Sequence record: OR896157.1
From: a phage
Direction: 5' to 3' (one strand)
Length of the DNA stretch: 64,000 bases
Position numbers and translations under genes: made by a program. This document shows positions 21,558 to 26,853 of the stretch, in pieces; the stretch's first letter is position 1, and each line of letters starts with the position of its first letter. A model generated the notes under the pieces. The model made no database searches, had not been told where the DNA came from, and was given only the letters and a program-made list of their open reading frames with translations.

Positions 21558-22841
21558 ATGGCTAACATCCATGACCTTCTGCGCGAATCAACTACAACGA
21601 CGAGTTCAATTTCTGCCCGTCCTAGCCTCGTTGCATTGACTCGCGCTACTACTAAATTAATTTACTCTGATATTGTAGCTACTCAGCGTACTACTCAACC
21701 TACTGCTGCTTTCTATGGTATCAAATACTTGAACCCTAACAAAGAATTAACGTTCCTTACTGGTGCTACCTACGCAGGTCAAACTGGTACTGAGGACCGT
21801 AAGTCTATTGAAACATTAACTGCTTCAAATAAAGATTCATTTGGCAAGGGCGATTTATTCAAATACAATGACATTGTTTACAAAGTACTTGTAGATAATC
21901 CATTTGACCAGATTACTGAAACTGATTTAGAAGTTGTAATTCAGATTTCTCTGGTTAAACTCACTACTCGTTTAATGTCTGATGCTGCTATCACTTCCAA
22001 GTTTGAAACTGCTGGAGCTGATATCGCTGAAGCTAAATTCCAAATTGATAAATGGCAGACTCAGGTTAAATCTCGTAAACTTAAAACGAGTTTGACTGTT
22101 GAATTGGCCCAGGACCTTGAAGCTAACGGCTTTGATGCTTCTAATTTTATCGATGATTTACTGGCTACTGAAATGGCCGATGAAATTAACAAAGACATTT
22201 TACAAAGTCTTGTGACAGTTTCAAAACGATATAAAGTTGAAGGTATCACAGATACTGGATTCATCGATTTATCTTATGCATCTGCTCCAGAAGCTGGTCG
22301 TTCTCTGTATCGCATGGTATGCGAAATGGTTTCTCATATTCAGCGTTCAACATCCTTTACTGCAACGTTTGCTGTAGCATCTACTCGTGCTGCTGCTGTT
22401 CTTGCTGCATCAGGTTGGTTGAAGCACCAAGCTGGTGACGATGAATATCTGTCAGAGAATGCCTATGGTTTCCTGGCGAATGGTTTGCCTCTGTATTGCG
22501 ATACTAACACTCCACTTGATTATGTAATTGTCGGTGTAGTAGAAGATATTGGTGATAAAGAAGTTGTATCGAGTATTTTCTATGCTCCATACACTGAAGG
22601 TATCGACCTTGATGACCCGGAACATGTTGGTGCATTTAAAGTAATTGTTGACCCAGAAAGCTTACAGCCTTCTGTAGCTTTACTCGTTCGTTATGCACTG
22701 TCTGCTAACCCGTATACTGTAGCTAAAGATGAAAAGGAAGCTCGAATCATTGATGGCGGGGATATGGATAAGATGGCAGGACGTTCTGATTTATCAGTTC
22801 TTCTTGGTGTTAAGTTACCAAAAATCATCATTGAAGACTAA
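21558..22841 (+). CDS. 24: capsid vertex protein gp24
   Basis: 427 aa, same as T4; gp23 paralogue at the expected position. Confidence 0.92.
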   Translation: MANIHDLLRESTTTTSSISARPSLVALTRATTKLIYSDIVATQRTTQPTAAFYGIKYLNPNKELTFLTGATYAGQTGTEDRKSIETLTASNKDSFGKGDLFKYNDIVYKVLVDNPFDQITETDLEVVIQISLVKLTTRLMSDAAITSKFETAGADIAEAKFQIDKWQTQVKSRKLKTSLTVELAQDLEANGFDASNFIDDLLATEMADEINKDILQSLVTVSKRYKVEGITDTGFIDLSYASAPEAGRSLYRMVCEMVSHIQRSTSFTATFAVASTRAAAVLAASGWLKHQAGDDEYLSENAYGFLANGLPLYCDTNTPLDYVIVGVVEDIGDKEVVSSIFYAPYTEGIDLDDPEHVGAFKVIVDPESLQPSVALLVRYALSANPYTVAKDEKEARIIDGGDMDKMAGRSDLSVLLGVKLPKIIIED

Positions 22842-22847
22842 AAGAAA

Positions 22848-22865
22848 GGGAACCTCACGGTTCCC
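22848..22865. terminator. bidirectional hairpin GGGAACC-TCAC-GGTTCCC between convergent gene 24 and the DprA-like ORF
   Basis: Perfect inverted repeat between two convergent stop codons. Confidence 0.5.
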
Positions 22866-22873
22866 TTTTGTAG

Positions 22874-23419
22874 TTATAAAGCAAATATATCGAATGTTGG
22901 CGCGTACTTGTCTTTGAATCTCTGATAGATTTCCTTTTCATACAGATTGTAGCAAGGTATCCCATGACGCTTAGCTATATCAACGGCCACTCGTGTCCCT
23001 CCAGTAACGCTAGAGAGTTTTATTGGAGCATAGAATAGTACCATATCCACGGGTGACTGGCAGTCCTCTCCGAGCACCTGAAGTGCATTGCGGGCAAATA
23101 AAGTCTTCACTATATCCCGGCACTCATCCCAGTAACTTGTCACTTCTCTTACTTTAATTACACTCCTGATTCTCACTTCATTTGGAAAATCTTTCCACAC
23201 CTTTACTCCAACTCCGGTTTTAAGACCATTGAAGCCTTCGTATGGTATGATACGTAATGAACGCTCACGGTCGTATCTACTGAGCCATGATTCATCTGCA
23301 CCAGGAGCTCCTCCCGAATACGAAAAATGGCCCGACTCCGAAAGAGCCTGACCAGTTAATGACATGACATCTAAAACACGACGTGGCGTCTCTCGAGAAC
23401 CGATTAACGCCAAACGCAT
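22874..23419 (-). CDS. DprA/Smf-like Rossmann-fold domain protein (not present at this locus in T4)
   Basis: ATG overlaps rnlB stop (TAATG); motif blocks LIGSRETP, SGGAPGADESW, FARNALQVLG, TGGTRVAVDIAKRHGIPCY resemble the conserved blocks of the DprA Rossmann domain as recalled. Confidence 0.5.
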   Translation of the reverse strand: MRLALIGSRETPRRVLDVMSLTGQALSESGHFSYSGGAPGADESWLSRYDRERSLRIIPYEGFNGLKTGVGVKVWKDFPNEVRIRSVIKVREVTSYWDECRDIVKTLFARNALQVLGEDCQSPVDMVLFYAPIKLSSVTGGTRVAVDIAKRHGIPCYNLYEKEIYQRFKDKYAPTFDIFAL

Positions 23420-24423
23420 TAGTTACTTACCAGTTCAATCCAAACTGGACGAATTACGCCTTGCACGTAATTGACAAGTTCTTTCTTGACTACATCAGGA
23501 TTGTCTGCATCGGTAATGAAGATTTCTTCACGACCAGCTTCTTCCAGAATGTCCTGGACAGTAAGACCCATAACTTTGCCAAAGTCTTTTGGACCAACTT
23601 GACCAATCTTACTGATAACGTTATTGACTCGGTTCAGAGTAGCATAAGCTGCCAGGGTGGAGAAAGTTACCTTATCAACATCAGTCAGTTCAACCTTAGC
23701 TTTAATAGGCTTATCGGATTTAGCTTTCTCAGAGAACTTGGAGTTCTTGCATTTAATAGCTACACGAGAACCGTTAGGGAAGAATTTAGGGTAGCATGGT
23801 TTCAGAACGTAGCCTTCGGCAACATTTTCATTTGATACTACAGCATCGTATGTTGCGGTATTAGCAATTTCCAAACCTGCATCTCTTACAATATCATTAT
23901 AATAATTTACAACTACGGATAAATCGTTTGGAATTTTAGCAAGGTCATCGAATTTACCACGACCCAGTAATGGAGCCATTTTAAACCCAAAAACATTACA
24001 CATGCGTTCCATCATGAAATCATCGACATAAGACGATTCACCGGATTCGGTAGTCACTTTAATATCAAAGACATAGAAGTCTTTTTCACCGTAATCAACA
24101 CCTTTCTGAATTCCGCCACCAGCAAATTCACCAAAGATTTGATAAGCTACAGTAGCACCAGTCAGTGCAGCTTGAACAGCTTTAAATGACTCGTTATAGC
24201 GACCCATGATAACCATATAGCCAAAGAAGTCTTCTGCTGGCAGAATAGGACCAGTACGCTTGGCAGGCTGAATTGAATCTTTAGTTACGATAACAGAGAA
24301 GTTAGTGCCGTGAATTTTCTCACGCGCTACCCAAGTTTCAGAGACATCAAAACCAGCATTACGAATACGCTCAATGAATTTACCGTTGTAGTGGTTCTCG
24401 AGCGTTGAATATTTCTCAAACAT
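23419..24423 (-). CDS. rnlB: RNA ligase 2
   Basis: 334 aa, same as T4 Rnl2; N-terminus [18 protein letters not shown] and KxHGTN ligase motif. Confidence 0.93.
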
Positions 24424-24431
24424 ATTTCACC

Positions 24432-24680
24432 TTAGAATTTAATTTTGAAAGACTGACCTTGATAGTCAGCATTGAACTCATATGAGAAGCCATTTTTAGA
24501 AAAGAATACTTTCATAGCTTCTACATTATTGCTCCATTTTTCTGGAACAATATAAAACGTTTCAAACTTACCACGTTGTGCTGCGTTCCGCAGGTTATCT
24601 TTAATATGAGCTTTAATATCTTCTGGTAGTTCATCACGCACACCCTGTGCCAATGCTCTGTATTCTTGAGCTAGACTCAT
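24432..24680 (-). CDS. hypothetical protein (24.2-like position)
   Basis: 82 aa from first internal ATG (MSLAQEYR...); T4-like codon usage; synteny. Confidence 0.55.
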   Translation of the reverse strand: MSLAQEYRALAQGVRDELPEDIKAHIKDNLRNAAQRGKFETFYIVPEKWSNNVEAMKVFFSKNGFSYEFNADYQGQSFKIKF

Positions 24681-24794
24681 TATAATCACCGTATAAATAT
24701 CAATAATTAGGGAGGGTTCTATCCTTCTATGGTCAAGCGTATGTACTAGAAAGAATCCGTGAAACCATTATACCACGCGGATTCTTTAAGCATA

Positions 24795-25374: not shown

Positions 25375-25431
25375 TACTTTATCCTACAGTGAAAGTTGTT
25401 GGTATAATACCACTCTCTAGAAAAAGCAAAA

Positions 25432-25447
25432 GGAGCCCGAAGGCTCC
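25432..25447 (-). terminator. GGAGCC-UUCG-GGCUCC hairpin plus U-run directly after hoc stop
   Basis: Read on minus strand: hairpin followed by TTTTGCTTTTT. Confidence 0.55.
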
Positions 25448-25449
25448 TT

Positions 25450-26853
25450 TTAATAGATGATGCCAGCTTCTAAAGCTGAACGATGAACAATACGTCCATT
25501 CCGTGATTCTTGCACATCAACTTCTGGATAATCATCTAGCATTTTAGCTAGTGTATATCGGTGCAAGTAATAATCGCTGTCGGTGTCATCAAGTTTCCAA
25601 TCTTTTCCTGCGACAGTCATTTCTTGGATTTCATCCATGACCCACCAACCACACCAGATATAGGCTGTTCCTCGGAATGGCAGAGGATGAATATACGGAA
25701 GTTCTCCATCAGGGGCAGGAGCTACCCTTTTAGTAATAGTTACATCACCAGTTGTAGTGACTGTAACAGGAGTGTAATCTTCTGCGGAAACATCAACAGA
25801 AACACCAATCACTTGGGACCCTATATCAGACGTGTCAATCACTAAAGTGCTAGTAGAACCTTCTACAGGAGAACCATCTTTAGTCCAAGAATAAACCCCA
25901 GTTGCACCTTCAGGAGCACCGATAACATTGGCTTTAAAAGACGCCTCAGACCCCTGCTCGGTCGTAATAGACTCAGGAGTCAAAGTAACTGAAACCCCGC
26001 TCATGGTCTTTTTGGTAATCGTTACATTACCGGTTTTAGTAACTGTAACGGGTTTATAATCTGGAGCAGAAACAACAGCAGAAACCTCAATTGCCTGCGA
26101 CCCGATAGTGGATGTATCAATTTCTAGCGTACTTGTTGAGCCTTCTATAGGAGAACCGTCTTTGGCCCATGAGTAAGCTACAGATGCTCCCGCCGGCGCT
26201 CCAGTAACATCGGCTTTAAAAGATGCTTCTGCTCCCTTTTCAGCGGTAATTGAACTAGGCGTCAGAGTAACAGAAACACCACTCATGGTCTTTTTAGTGA
26301 TGGTTACGCTAGCACCTTTGCTTACAGTCACTGGATTGTAATCTGGTGCAGAAACTGTTGCTTCACAATTCAGAGTATAATTAGCCTCTGCTGACTCAGT
26401 TATGGTAATCGTTTTAGCAGTCTGACCTTCAATAACGACAGTACCACGCTTCCAAACATAAGCAATGCTTGCACCTTCTGGAGCACCAACAACGTTAGCC
26501 GTAACTACCTGAGACTGGCCAATTTCTTTAGAAACAGAAGTCGGGCTCAAAGTTAAAGTAATCGCAGGCATAGTTTTGTTCTGAACTGTAAGAGTGGTTT
26601 CTGCCTCAGCAGTTTCTGCCTCACCCTCTGCTGGGGTAACAGTAGCAACTACTTTAACAGTCTTACTGCCGGCAGGTCCTGCAGCAACATAATTCATAGC
26701 TGCGGTGACAGAAGATTGTTTTACGCCATTTACTGTCCATACAAACGTTTCTGTGCCTTCAGCTGCGGCTCCAGAAGTTGTTGCAGTAAAATTGGTTGTT
26801 GCTCCAATGACTGCCGAAGCAGCCAAAGGAGCAATAGATACGCTATAAGCCAT
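25450..26853 (-). CDS. hoc: outer capsid decoration protein Hoc with four Ig-like domains
   Basis: 467 aa; four ~94-aa Ig-like repeats then C-terminal YIHPLPF...WCGWWV capsid-binding region as in T4 Hoc; position between 24.x ORFs and inh. Confidence 0.85.
   Translation of the reverse strand: MAYSVSIAPLAASAVIGATTNFTATTSGAAAEGTETFVWTVNGVKQSSVTAAMNYVAAGPAGSKTVKVVATVTPAEGEAETAEAETTLTVQNKTMPAITLTLSPTSVSKEIGQSQVVTANVVGAPEGASIAYVWKRGTVVIEGQTAKTITITESAEANYTLNCEATVSAPDYNPVTVSKGASVTITKKTMSGVSVTLTPSSITAEKGAEASFKADVTGAPAGASVAYSWAKDGSPIEGSTSTLEIDTSTIGSQAIEVSAVVSAPDYKPVTVTKTGNVTITKKTMSGVSVTLTPESITTEQGSEASFKANVIGAPEGATGVYSWTKDGSPVEGSTSTLVIDTSDIGSQVIGVSVDVSAEDYTPVTVTTTGDVTITKRVAPAPDGELPYIHPLPFRGTAYIWCGWWVMDEIQEMTVAGKDWKLDDTDSDYYLHRYTLAKMLDDYPEVDVQESRNGRIVHRSALEAGIIY
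25723..26286 (-). repeat. tandem duplication of a 282-bp Ig-domain coding unit inside hoc
   Basis: Residues 190-283 and 284-377 of Hoc are ~75 percent identical (MSGVSVTLTP...VTITKKT twice); DNA repeats accordingly. Confidence 0.8.

What the first reader, a model, noticed from the sequence alone, without database searches (positions are those of the whole stretch)
22874..23419. DprA/Smf-like Rossmann-domain gene translationally coupled to RNA ligase 2
As far as I recall, T4 has nothing between gene 24 and rnlB; here a 181-aa ORF sits in that gap, with its ATG overlapping the rnlB stop (TAATG) and its stop bracketed by a bidirectional hairpin. Its sequence blocks (LIGSRETP, SGGAPGADESW, FARNALQVLG, TGGTRVAVDIAKRHGIPCY) line up in order with the conserved blocks of the DprA Rossmann domain, but it lacks the flanking DprA domains. 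A minimal DprA/SLOG-type fold in a phage could be a recombination mediator alongside UvsY, or a nucleotide-binding protein; coupling to an RNA-repair ligase is unexplained.
Basis: partly seen in the sequence, partly recalled or inferred. Interest (0 to 1): 0.65.

Follow-up and report, generated by a model that had tools for sequence, protein, structure and literature searches.

The report
Phage DprA-like SLOG gene beside RNA ligase 2
A real 181-residue gene, fused by overlapping stop and start codons to the RNA ligase 2 gene of a T4-like Enterobacter phage, encodes a stand-alone DprA-type nucleotide/nucleic-acid-binding domain; databases already name this very common phage family, but I found no experimental test of its function.

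Summary
ORF 22874-23419(-) encodes 181 aa. Its ATG overlaps the rnlB stop (TAATG), and a hairpin lies between it and convergent gene 24. T4 has only 29 bp at this position.

The family is large (1356 phage records; 6391 clusters at 50% identity). It lies next to Rnl2 in 428 phage records, including at a different genome site in RB16-like phages. In phiM12-like phages it lies near a different RNA ligase type. Elsewhere the domain is fused to NADAR, Macro, DUF4326 and RecJ.

Best reading: a single-stranded nucleic-acid/nucleotide-pocket module that assists phage nucleic-acid repair or counter-defence. The main rival is an ADP-ribose-derivative sensor or hydrolase. The gene is already annotated and computationally described, so novelty is low. 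The function and the ligase link are untested.

The parts
22874..23419 (-). Gene for a 181-aa stand-alone DprA-type SLOG domain (PHROG 768); coordinates include the stop codon
23417..23421 (-). TAATG junction: the rnlB stop TAA (23421-23419) and the SLOG start ATG (23419-23417) share one base
   Evidence: Read from the sequence. Three other Karamvirus loci (L004-L006) carry the identical junction GTAACTAATGCGT, and loci L011 and L014 also have a 1-nt TAATG overlap with different flanking bases. Other loci show ORF-call overlaps of 4, 11 or 22 nt or a 9-nt gap; these values depend on the mechanical start-codon choice.
23419..24423 (-). rnlB, T4-type RNA ligase 2 (334 aa)
   Evidence: PF09414 and PF18043 above their cut-offs. 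PHROG 548 E 3.8e-123. About 68% identity to the rnlB of T4-type (Tequatrovirus-like) Escherichia phages.
22845..22868 (.). 10-bp stem / 4-nt loop hairpin between the convergent stops of gene 24 (+) and the SLOG gene (-); probable terminator of the leftward unit
   Evidence: Terminator-like site on the minus strand. Plus-strand function is inferred only (sequence).
21558..22841 (+). Gene 24 (head vertex protein), the convergent neighbour
   Evidence: ORF. Annotated as gp24 in phage PG7 at the homologous position.
24432..24689 (-). 85-aa ORF directly upstream of rnlB in the same leftward unit (PHROG 3012, unknown function; sits where T4 has 24.2)
24767..24792 (-). Promoter-like sequence: TGCTTA, 14 nt, TGgTATAAT (MotA-box-like element plus extended -10)
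   Evidence: Read by eye. The sigma-70 scan did not report it. Inference only.
25404..25428 (-). Promoter-like sequence: TGCTTT, 13 nt including TGg, TATTAT. It lies just downstream of the hoc terminator and is the likely start of the leftward unit that ends with rnlB and the SLOG gene
   Evidence: Read by eye. The hoc terminator at 25452-25427(-) is. Inference only.

Best explanation
The gene encodes a stand-alone DprA-type SLOG domain.

Proposed mechanism (inferred): its conserved pocket holds one nucleotide unit of a single-stranded or nicked nucleic acid, as the equivalent pocket does in H. pylori DprA. The pocket residues are G7-S8-R9, S35-G-G-A-P-G-A-D42, P59/F63, L107-x-x-R110-N111-x-x-Q114 and G140-G-T142. 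The protein is not a LOG-type N-glycosidase.

Expression (partly shown): it is made together with RNA ligase 2 from the same leftward pre-replicative transcript, by coupled translation. The TAATG overlap is shown; the promoters are inferred.

Role (inferred): it acts as a substrate-handling accessory in phage nucleic-acid repair or counter-defence. It would bind or present damaged strands to enzymes that mend them. Here that enzyme is Rnl2. In other phages the same domain is fused or linked to NADAR and Macro de-ADP-ribosylases, RecJ, or an Rnl5-type ligase.

Shown: gene, fold, motif conservation, linkage and fusion patterns. Inferred: nucleic-acid binding, any contact with Rnl2, and the biological role.

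For: **Motifs.** Both DprA signature motifs, defined from the HpDprA-ssDNA complex and mutagenesis (PMC3950713), are invariant or nearly invariant in 48 family members. The motif order and spacing match those of E. coli Smf.

**Closest profile families.**
- 43 of 48 members give their only recurrent Pfam match to PF02481. None matches LOG (PF03641).
- The only PADLOC matches to the SLOG domain are the DprA-like antitoxins PsyrA and ShosA. ThsA is not matched.

**Fusions.** Among 49 longer family members: NADAR x8, DUF4326 x9, Macro x2, and RecJ (DHH-DHHA1-OB) x2 in both domain orders. RecJ acts on ssDNA (established knowledge). Phage NADAR (T4 gp30.3, AdfN) is experimentally an ADP-ribosyl-DNA hydrolase (PMC11825919).

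**Ligase linkage.**
- 428 phage records carry Rnl2 and the SLOG gene side by side. That is at least about 70% of the roughly 600 records that have both.
- The pair stays together at a different genome site in RB16/RB43-like phages.
- phiM12-like phages and one metagenomic contig place the SLOG gene one to two genes from an Rnl5-type ligase (PHA02142 OB + RNA_ligase).

**Charge.** The family is mildly basic, median pI 8.7.
Against: - No binding or activity data exist; no experimental paper on the phage family was found.
- The conserved pocket is the generic SLOG ligand site, so the same residues could hold a free nucleotide or an ADP-ribose derivative.
- Sequence similarity to DprA is below Pfam's cut-off and confined to the first beta-alpha-beta unit.
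- About 750 phage records have the SLOG gene without Rnl2. About 800, including T4, have Rnl2 without it. Neither protein therefore needs the other.
- In non-T4 phages the neighbours are heterogeneous.
- Much of the adjacency may be inherited from one ancestor rather than repeatedly selected.
Confidence: 0.4

Rival explanations
1. The domain senses, sequesters or hydrolyses ADP-ribose or NAD+ derivatives. It would bind or cleave a soluble ADP-ribose-derived molecule: a host immune signal such as a cADPR isomer, or a by-product of NAD+-dependent RNA-end repair such as ADPr>P. This is the published computational prediction for viral SLOG domains.
For: - Iyer et al. 2022 (PMC9503650) place most viral SLOG domains in the YpsA-like clade. 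From fusions to Macro, NADAR and DUF4326 they predict action on ADPr derivatives.
- The same fusions were recovered here.
- The GxD/E signature of that clade is present as G40-A-D42.
- NAMPT, SIR2 and MazG genes lie within a few kb of the SLOG gene in RB16, KoPa-4, ALITA and Kimel.
- Fourteen invariant columns at about 30% identity look like a specific ligand or active site.
- RNA-ligase repair pathways are tied to NAD+ through KptA or sirtuin.
Against: - The LOG catalytic motif PGGxGTxxE is absent. The position of the catalytic Glu is a nearly invariant Ala145.
- No ThsA or LOG profile match.
- DprA, not ThsA or LOG, is the top structural and sequence neighbour.
- Phage NADAR has since been shown to act on ADP-ribosylated DNA rather than soluble signals. 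The fusions therefore no longer argue specifically for soluble ligands.
- RecJ fusions in both domain orders are more simply explained by ssDNA binding.
Confidence: 0.33
2. The protein is a classical recombination mediator. Like bacterial DprA, it would load the phage RecA homologue UvsX (or host RecA) onto gp32/SSB-coated ssDNA, alongside or instead of UvsY.
For: - Database annotation (PHROG 768; RefSeq for PG7).
- Conserved DprA ssDNA-pocket motifs.
- Iyer et al. 2021 suggest an extra single-strand-binding role in jumbo phages (PMC7824862).
- uvsW and uvsY lie about 4-6 kb away in PG7.
Against: - The annotation is by name transfer only.
- The phage already has UvsY.
- The gene is linked to RNA ligases and fused to de-ADP-ribosylases, not to recombinases.
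- The protein lacks the SAM-like and winged-helix domains of DprA.
- T4 recombines without it.
- Nothing here tests a UvsX or RecA interface.
Confidence: 0.12
3. The protein is an orphan antitoxin mimic. It would substitute for the DprA-like antitoxins ShosA or PsyrA and so neutralise host PRTase-toxin defence systems, as the orphan NADAR AdfN neutralises DarT1.
For: - The only PADLOC hits for the SLOG domain are PsyrA and ShosA (E down to 4e-5).
- ShosA works through ssDNA binding, dimerisation and RecA binding rather than by binding its toxin (PMC12961424). A free-standing homologue could therefore in principle replace it.
- There is precedent for orphan antitoxins in T4-like phages.
Against: - The matches are weak, cover only the shared N-terminal motif, and are no better than those to DprA itself.
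- ShosA is 303-308 aa with extra regions.
- The idea does not explain the RNA-ligase linkage or the NADAR, Macro and RecJ fusions.
Confidence: 0.08

Closest known systems
Bacterial DprA/Smf Rossmann domain (PF02481; e.g. H. pylori DprA 4LJK/4LJR, R. palustris 3MAJ)
   Same: - Same order and similar spacing of the motifs GSR, SGxAxGxD, [FLY]xxRN and a small-residue G-x-x-T/A loop.
- Both published ssDNA-binding signature motifs are conserved.
   Different: - About 16-20% identity and below Pfam's gathering score.
- 181 aa with no SAM-like N-domain and no C-terminal winged helix.
- Family-specific invariants: P12, A38-P39, Q114, T142.
- Encoded by lytic phages next to an RNA ligase, not in a competence or recombination context.
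- ssDNA and RecA binding are untested.
PHROG 768 / RefSeq 'DprA-like DNA recombination-mediator protein' of phages (e.g. PG7 gp249, RB16p235, JSE_00169, phiM12)
   Same: This is the family the gene belongs to: full-length match, E 4e-57. Deposited Karamvirus genomes carry 98-99% identical copies in the same position.
   Different: None in kind. The name is an annotation by similarity, and no member was found to have been tested experimentally.
Viral YpsA-like SLOG domains described by Iyer, Burroughs, Anantharaman and Aravind (2021, 2022)
   Same: - Stand-alone phage SLOG domains enriched in larger phages.
- Fused to Macro, NADAR and DUF4326.
- GxD/E signature present.
   Different: - Those papers predict action on soluble ADPr derivatives.
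- In the passages retrieved they do not mention the linkage to Rnl2 or Rnl5-type ligases.
- The conserved DprA ssDNA-pocket motifs and the RecJ fusions seen here point at least as much to nucleic-acid binding.
ShosA / PsyrA, the DprA-like antitoxins of ShosTA and PsyrTA defence systems
   Different: They are host or prophage defence components of about 300-400 aa, paired with a PRTase toxin. The matches are weak and cover the N-terminal part only.
LOG / PpnN nucleotide 5'-monophosphate N-glycosidases and the ThsA SLOG sensor domain
   Different: The PGGxGTxxE catalytic motif is absent. No Pfam LOG match and no PADLOC ThsA match.

Membership tests
SLOG superfamily (SMF/DprA-LOG Rossmannoid fold) | Three-layer alpha/beta Rossmannoid fold with its closest structural relatives among SLOG proteins | tested here: met
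   [not shown]
SLOG superfamily (YpsA-like clade) | Polar/Gly loop after strand 1 and a GxD/E signature after strand 2 | tested here: met
   I6-G7-S8-R9 and G37-A-P-G40-A-D42 are invariant in 48 sequences. The GxD/E signature is described in PMC6459960.
PHROG 768 (phage DprA-like proteins) | Full-length profile match | tested here: met
   E 4.1e-57, 193.8 bits, residues 2-174 against profile positions 5-181 of 191.
DprA/Smf (Pfam PF02481 DNA_processg_A) | Score above Pfam's gathering threshold | tested here: not met
   13.5 bits against a 29.6-bit cut-off, residues 3-43 only. 43 of 48 relatives match weakly, best E 1.1e-5. hhalign against enterobacterial DprA gives E 9e-4, probability 23%.
DprA/Smf | Signature motif 1, G-S/T/A-R, in the loop after the first strand (HpDprA G50-R52) | tested here: met
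   G7-S8-R9 is invariant. Motif defined in PMC3950713. This segment is aligned to HpDprA by hmmsearch.
DprA/Smf | Signature motif 2, F/L/Y-x-x-R-N/D, in the pocket helix (HpDprA F140-N144) | tested here: met
   L107-F-A-R110-N111. L107, R110 and N111 are each at least 90% conserved. The low-stringency hhalign places this motif collinear with Smf F208-x-x-R211-N212 but one residue out of register, in a low-confidence stretch; the exact correspondence is by motif inspection.
DprA/Smf | Flanking SAM-like N-terminal and winged-helix C-terminal domains (typical, not universal) | tested here: not met
   The 181-aa protein has one domain and no other Pfam hit. E. coli DprA has PF25317 + PF02481 + PF17782.
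DprA/Smf | ssDNA binding, dimerisation, and loading of RecA-type recombinase | not testable with these tools
   Needs biochemistry. Only a mildly basic pI (8.96; family median 8.7) was computed.
LOG / PpnN phosphoribohydrolases (PF03641) | Catalytic motif P-G-G-x-G-T-x-x-E | tested here: not met
   The family has G140-G-T142-x-x-A145 (Ala nearly invariant) and no Glu. No PF03641 hit in 48 members.
ThsA-type SLOG sensor of cADPR isomers | Profile match to the ThsA SLOG domain; binding of 3'cADPR | tested here: inconclusive
   [not shown]
T4 Rnl2 family (the upstream partner gene) | Nucleotidyltransferase domain plus the Rnl2-specific C-terminal domain | tested here: met
   PF09414 at 77 bits and PF18043 at 65.2 bits, both above their cut-offs.

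The most novel reading that the evidence does not exclude
The DprA-type SLOG protein and the nick-sealing RNA ligase form a two-gene repair and counter-defence module that has not been tested experimentally. The SLOG pocket would recognise a damaged or modified nucleotide (for example an ADP-ribosylated, adenylylated or otherwise blocked one) in single-stranded or nicked RNA or DNA. It would hand the strand to Rnl2 in this phage, or to NADAR, Macro or RecJ in fusion proteins. This would give T4-type Rnl2 its first defined biological partner and pathway.
Probability: 0.15. Interest if true: 0.7.

Novelty: already known. Interest (0 to 1): 0.33.

Why it matters
The biological role of T4-type RNA ligase 2 has, to my knowledge, stayed open since the enzyme was described in 2002. 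This SLOG family is among the commoner phage accessory proteins without a tested function (1356 of 50,697 phage records; 6391 clusters at 50% identity).

Three observations together give a concrete, cheap experimental lead:
- The two genes are translationally coupled in hundreds of phages.
- The pair survives relocation to another genome site.
- The same domain is linked to another ligase type and fused to ADP-ribosyl-nucleic-acid hydrolases and RecJ.

The obvious experiment is a knockout or expression screen against DarTG, ShosTA/PsyrTA, Thoeris and RNA-targeting defences, combined with binding assays. As a sequence finding it is ordinary: the gene is already annotated in near-identical genomes, and the family has been discussed computationally.

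Tried and rejected
**Sequence comparisons that gave little**
- phmmer against PDB with the single sequence gave only chance hits to glycosyl hydrolase and dockerin.
- NCBIfam gave no hit.
- hhalign of the family profile against E. coli Smf alone (probability 8.8%) and against 18 enterobacterial DprAs (probability 23%, E 9e-4) aligned only the first 64 columns.
- Forced global mode (-glob) gave a meaningless alignment. Low-mact mode gave a collinear 159-column alignment at E 4e-4, one residue out of register at the RN motif.
- The DprA search returned only sequences at least 68% identical to the query, so the DprA profile was shallow.

**Leads that went nowhere**
- P0024, a 299-aa 'Rnl2-SLOG fusion', has internal deletions in Rnl2 and lacks the GSR and GGAPGAD motifs. 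I rejected it as a deletion or assembly chimera and not a true fusion.
- A PHROG scan of the immediate neighbours in 43 non-T4 loci showed no recurrent partner.
- I rejected LOG-type catalysis because the motif is absent.
- I did not adopt the ThsA-type sensor reading because there is no profile match.

**Resources not available**
- The afdb50 fold library was not on the machine.
- Burroughs et al. 2015, the paper that defines SLOG clades, is not held.
- The sigma-70 scan found no convincing promoter for the unit, and no late-promoter TATAAATA lies on the minus strand between 22.8 and 25.4 kb.
- Literature searches for an experimental study of the phage family found none.

Full report
**1. The observation**

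The ORF finder lists 22874..23419 on the minus strand, 181 aa with an ATG start. It also lists 23419..24423(-), 334 aa. The upstream ORF is a genuine RNA ligase 2: Pfam RNA_ligase 2.6e-21, T4_Rnl2_C 7e-18, PHROG 548 3.8e-123.

The plus strand at 23417-23421 reads CATTA, which is TAATG on the coding strand. The rnlB stop and the ORF start therefore share one base.

Gene 24 (21558-22841, +) converges on the ORF. In the 32-nt gap between the two stops lies AAAGGGAACC-TCAC-GGTTCCCTTT (22845-22868). The scan scores it as a terminator on the minus strand. Plus-strand function is plausible only with a shorter stem.

In T4, gene 24 ends at 108606 and rnlB ends at 108636, with nothing between them.

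**2. Origin and reality of the gene**

The region is 98% identical to Enterobacter phage EnA02 and 93-96% identical to PG7-like phages (Karamvirus, Straboviridae). Some of these records already annotate the ORF as 'DprA-like DNA recombination-mediator protein'.

tblastn finds the protein in 1356 of 50,697 phage records, almost always full length. They span Klebsiella, Pseudomonas, Escherichia, Aeromonas, Vibrio, Acinetobacter and other phages. An exhaustive profile search finds 6391 cluster representatives at 50% identity, 5045 of them at E <= 1e-10. It is a real, widespread, conserved gene.

**3. What the protein is**

*Sequence.* PHROG 768 matches at 4e-57. Pfam DNA_processg_A scores only 13.5 bits against a 29.6-bit cut-off, over residues 3-43. 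NCBIfam gives nothing. Of 48 aligned relatives, 43 match PF02481 weakly and 10 match the SLOG family LDcluster4. None matches LOG. A family profile against PDB sequences hits a LOG-type protein and DprAs at E about 0.02, over the N-terminal part only.

*Structure.* The AF2 model built on the 48-sequence alignment is confident (pLDDT 93.6, pTM 0.88).
- Foldseek puts HpDprA first.
- BFVD shows many phage homologues at TM 0.7-0.86.

*Residues.* Invariant columns are I6 G7 S8 R9 P12, G37 A38 P39 G40 D42, Q114 and G140 G141 T142. Nearly invariant are S35 G36 P59 F63 L107 R110 N111 A145 N158 L159. Wang et al. defined two DprA signatures from the HpDprA-ssDNA complex and mutagenesis: G-S/T/A-R and F/L/Y-x-x-R-N/D. 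They contrasted these with LOG's PGGxGTxxE (PMC3950713). Here the first is G7-S8-R9 and the second is L107-x-x-R110-N111. The LOG Glu position is Ala145.

The fold is therefore SLOG, and the nearest clade is DprA-type. Formal Pfam membership fails, and the flanking DprA domains are absent (compare E. coli DprA). PADLOC supports this placement: the SLOG domain matches only the DprA-like antitoxins PsyrA and ShosA, weakly, and not ThsA.

**4. Linkage to RNA ligases**

In RB16 (Pseudotevenvirus) the rnlB-SLOG pair overlaps by 11 nt. It sits between srd and dam, far from gene 24. In JSE (Krischvirus) the SLOG gene sits next to gene 24 and no rnlB lies within the roughly 4 kb examined on either side.

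Of the 83 loci examined (80 from IMG/VR plus the PG7, JSE and RB16 records), 30 have an RNA ligase within three genes upstream: 28 have Rnl2 and 2 have another ligase type. Junctions are overlaps of 1 (TAATG), 4, 11 or 22 nt, or a 9-nt gap; these values depend on the start codon chosen by the mechanical ORF call.

Counts in the phage collection:

| Set | Records |
|---|---|
| SLOG gene | 1356 |
| Rnl2 | 1410 |
| Either gene | 2159 |
| Both genes in one place | 428 |

Roughly 600 records therefore have both genes, and at least about 70% of those have them adjacent. About 750 have the SLOG gene alone, and about 800 have Rnl2 alone, T4 among them.

Independently, Sinorhizobium phiM12-like phages (7 records) have an Rnl5-type ligase (PHA02142 OB + RNA_ligase) 391 nt upstream of the SLOG gene, with one gene between; a metagenomic contig (L055) has one about 1.1 kb upstream, with two ORFs between.

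The simplest history is an ancestral g24|SLOG-rnlB arrangement, with the SLOG gene lost in T4-type phages and rnlB lost in Krischvirus. The persistence of the pair after relocation, and the second ligase type, suggest a functional tie. Shared ancestry could still explain much of the adjacency.

**5. Other context**

Among the best 150 representatives, 49 are longer than about 225 aa. Their extra domains are DUF4326 (9), NADAR (8), Macro (2), RecJ DHH-DHHA1-OB (2, in both orders), a second SLOG type YAcAr (2), and weak sub-threshold Phage_30_3 matches overlapping the NADAR domain (2). Locus L036 is a DUF4326-SLOG fusion.

Iyer et al. 2022 had already reported the SLOG-Macro-NADAR-DUF4326 theme. 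They predicted that viral SLOG domains act on soluble ADPr derivatives (PMC9503650). Since then T4 gp30.3 (AdfN), a NADAR, was shown to counter DarT1 by de-ADP-ribosylating DNA (PMC11825919). The common denominator of NADAR, Macro, RecJ and the ligases can now be read as damaged single-stranded or nicked nucleic acid.

In non-T4 phages the gene sits among early accessory genes. These include NAMPT in RB16 and KoPa-4, MazG in KoPa-4 and Kimel, and SIR2 in ALITA. No immediate neighbour recurs.

**6. Expression**

No late promoter lies on the minus strand between the hoc terminator (25452-25427) and the ORF. By eye, two MotA-box-like/extended -10 sequences occur: TGCTTT-N13-TATTAT at 25428-25404 and TGCTTA-N14-TATAAT at 24792-24767. 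They suggest a middle-mode leftward unit: 80-aa DUF2774, 117-aa ORF, 85-aa ORF, rnlB, SLOG, terminator. This is inference.

**7. Mechanism**

I commit, at about 0.4, to a non-LOG, DprA-type pocket that grips one nucleotide of single-stranded or nicked nucleic acid. The protein would serve as an accessory to repair and counter-defence enzymes, here Rnl2.

| Reading | Confidence |
|---|---|
| ss nucleic-acid pocket module assisting repair or counter-defence | about 0.40 |
| ADPr-derivative sensor or hydrolase | about 0.33 |
| Classical UvsX/RecA mediator | about 0.12 |
| ShosA/PsyrA antitoxin mimic | about 0.08 |

Sequence alone cannot separate the first two, because DprA holds its nucleotide in the generic SLOG ligand site.

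**8. Novelty and score**

The gene is 98-99% identical to deposited and annotated genes. The family has a PHROG and has been discussed in two comparative papers. As a finding it is already known.

What is modestly new is the quantified ligase linkage, which holds across a genome rearrangement, and the second ligase type. To this I add the re-reading of the fusions in the light of DNA de-ADP-ribosylation. Interest is 0.33. If the SLOG-Rnl2 pair proves to be a defined repair pathway (probability about 0.15), interest would be about 0.7.

Noticed in passing
L001 5603-5720 (PG7 NC_023561, 112696-112815); same in L007: In the PG7 reference genome the homologous gene has one extra G (TCGGGAGTCGGG against TCGGAGTCGGG in the window). 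This frameshifts the N-terminus, so RefSeq annotates only a 142-aa CDS and leaves a 118-nt 'gap' before rnlB. hoc and uvsW are also split in that record, which suggests sequencing errors rather than pseudogenes.
   Followed up: partly
P0024 (NCBI protein, 299 aa, from a 100-kb contig): An apparent Rnl2-SLOG fusion protein. It consists of Rnl2 with internal deletions joined to the C-terminal two thirds of the SLOG protein and lacks the GSR and GGAPGAD motifs. It is probably a deletion variant or an assembly artefact.
   Followed up: partly
L074 4515-6504 (Sinorhizobium phage phiN3) and L055 3723-6474: An Rnl5-type RNA ligase (N-terminal PHA02142 OB domain plus RNA_ligase) lies upstream of the SLOG gene: one gene (a 131-aa PHROG 24154 protein) intervenes in L074, and two ORFs in L055. 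In L055 an AAA_28 ATPase gene precedes the ligase. Only 7 phage records (phiM12-like) show this arrangement.
   Followed up: partly
P0178, P0179, P0221, P0289, P0190, P0208, P0320; L036 5611-6579: Multidomain relatives of the family:
- SLOG-NADAR
- SLOG-Macro
- Macro-NADAR-DUF4326-SLOG
- RecJ-SLOG and SLOG-RecJ
- DUF4326-SLOG
- About 1480-aa proteins with three different SLOG domains plus NADAR
   Followed up: partly
P0031 residues 1-123: An N-terminal domain of unknown function (PHROG 9995, no Pfam hit) is fused to the SLOG domain in a metagenomic protein.
   Followed up: no
L003 5837-7270 (RB16), L085 1-295 (KoPa-4), and cluster 6 (L049): A nicotinamide phosphoribosyltransferase (NAMPT) gene lies within a few genes of the SLOG gene in Pseudotevenvirus phages and in Pseudomonas phage KoPa-4. 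In L049 a homologue of the same neighbour cluster lies two genes away (assigned by clustering only). SIR2 (ALITA) and MazG (KoPa-4, Kimel) are also nearby.
   Followed up: no
window 25427-25452 (-) and 25404-25428 (-): A strong hairpin terminator directly after the 467-aa Hoc-like gene (25450-26853, three or more Ig-like repeats) overlaps a MotA-box-like/extended -10 promoter-like sequence. This would restart leftward transcription into the rnlB-SLOG unit.
   Followed up: partly
window, whole (e.g. 19034, 24692, 27634 on +): The T4 late-promoter octamer TATAAATA occurs 14 times against 3.6 expected. One copy (24692-24699, +) lies in the intergenic region of the leftward unit, pointing antisense to it.
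   Followed up: no
window 24432-24689 (-): The ORF finder starts the 85-aa ORF at a GTG (MIIMSLAQ...). An ATG three codons downstream (MSLAQ...) is the more likely start.
   Followed up: no
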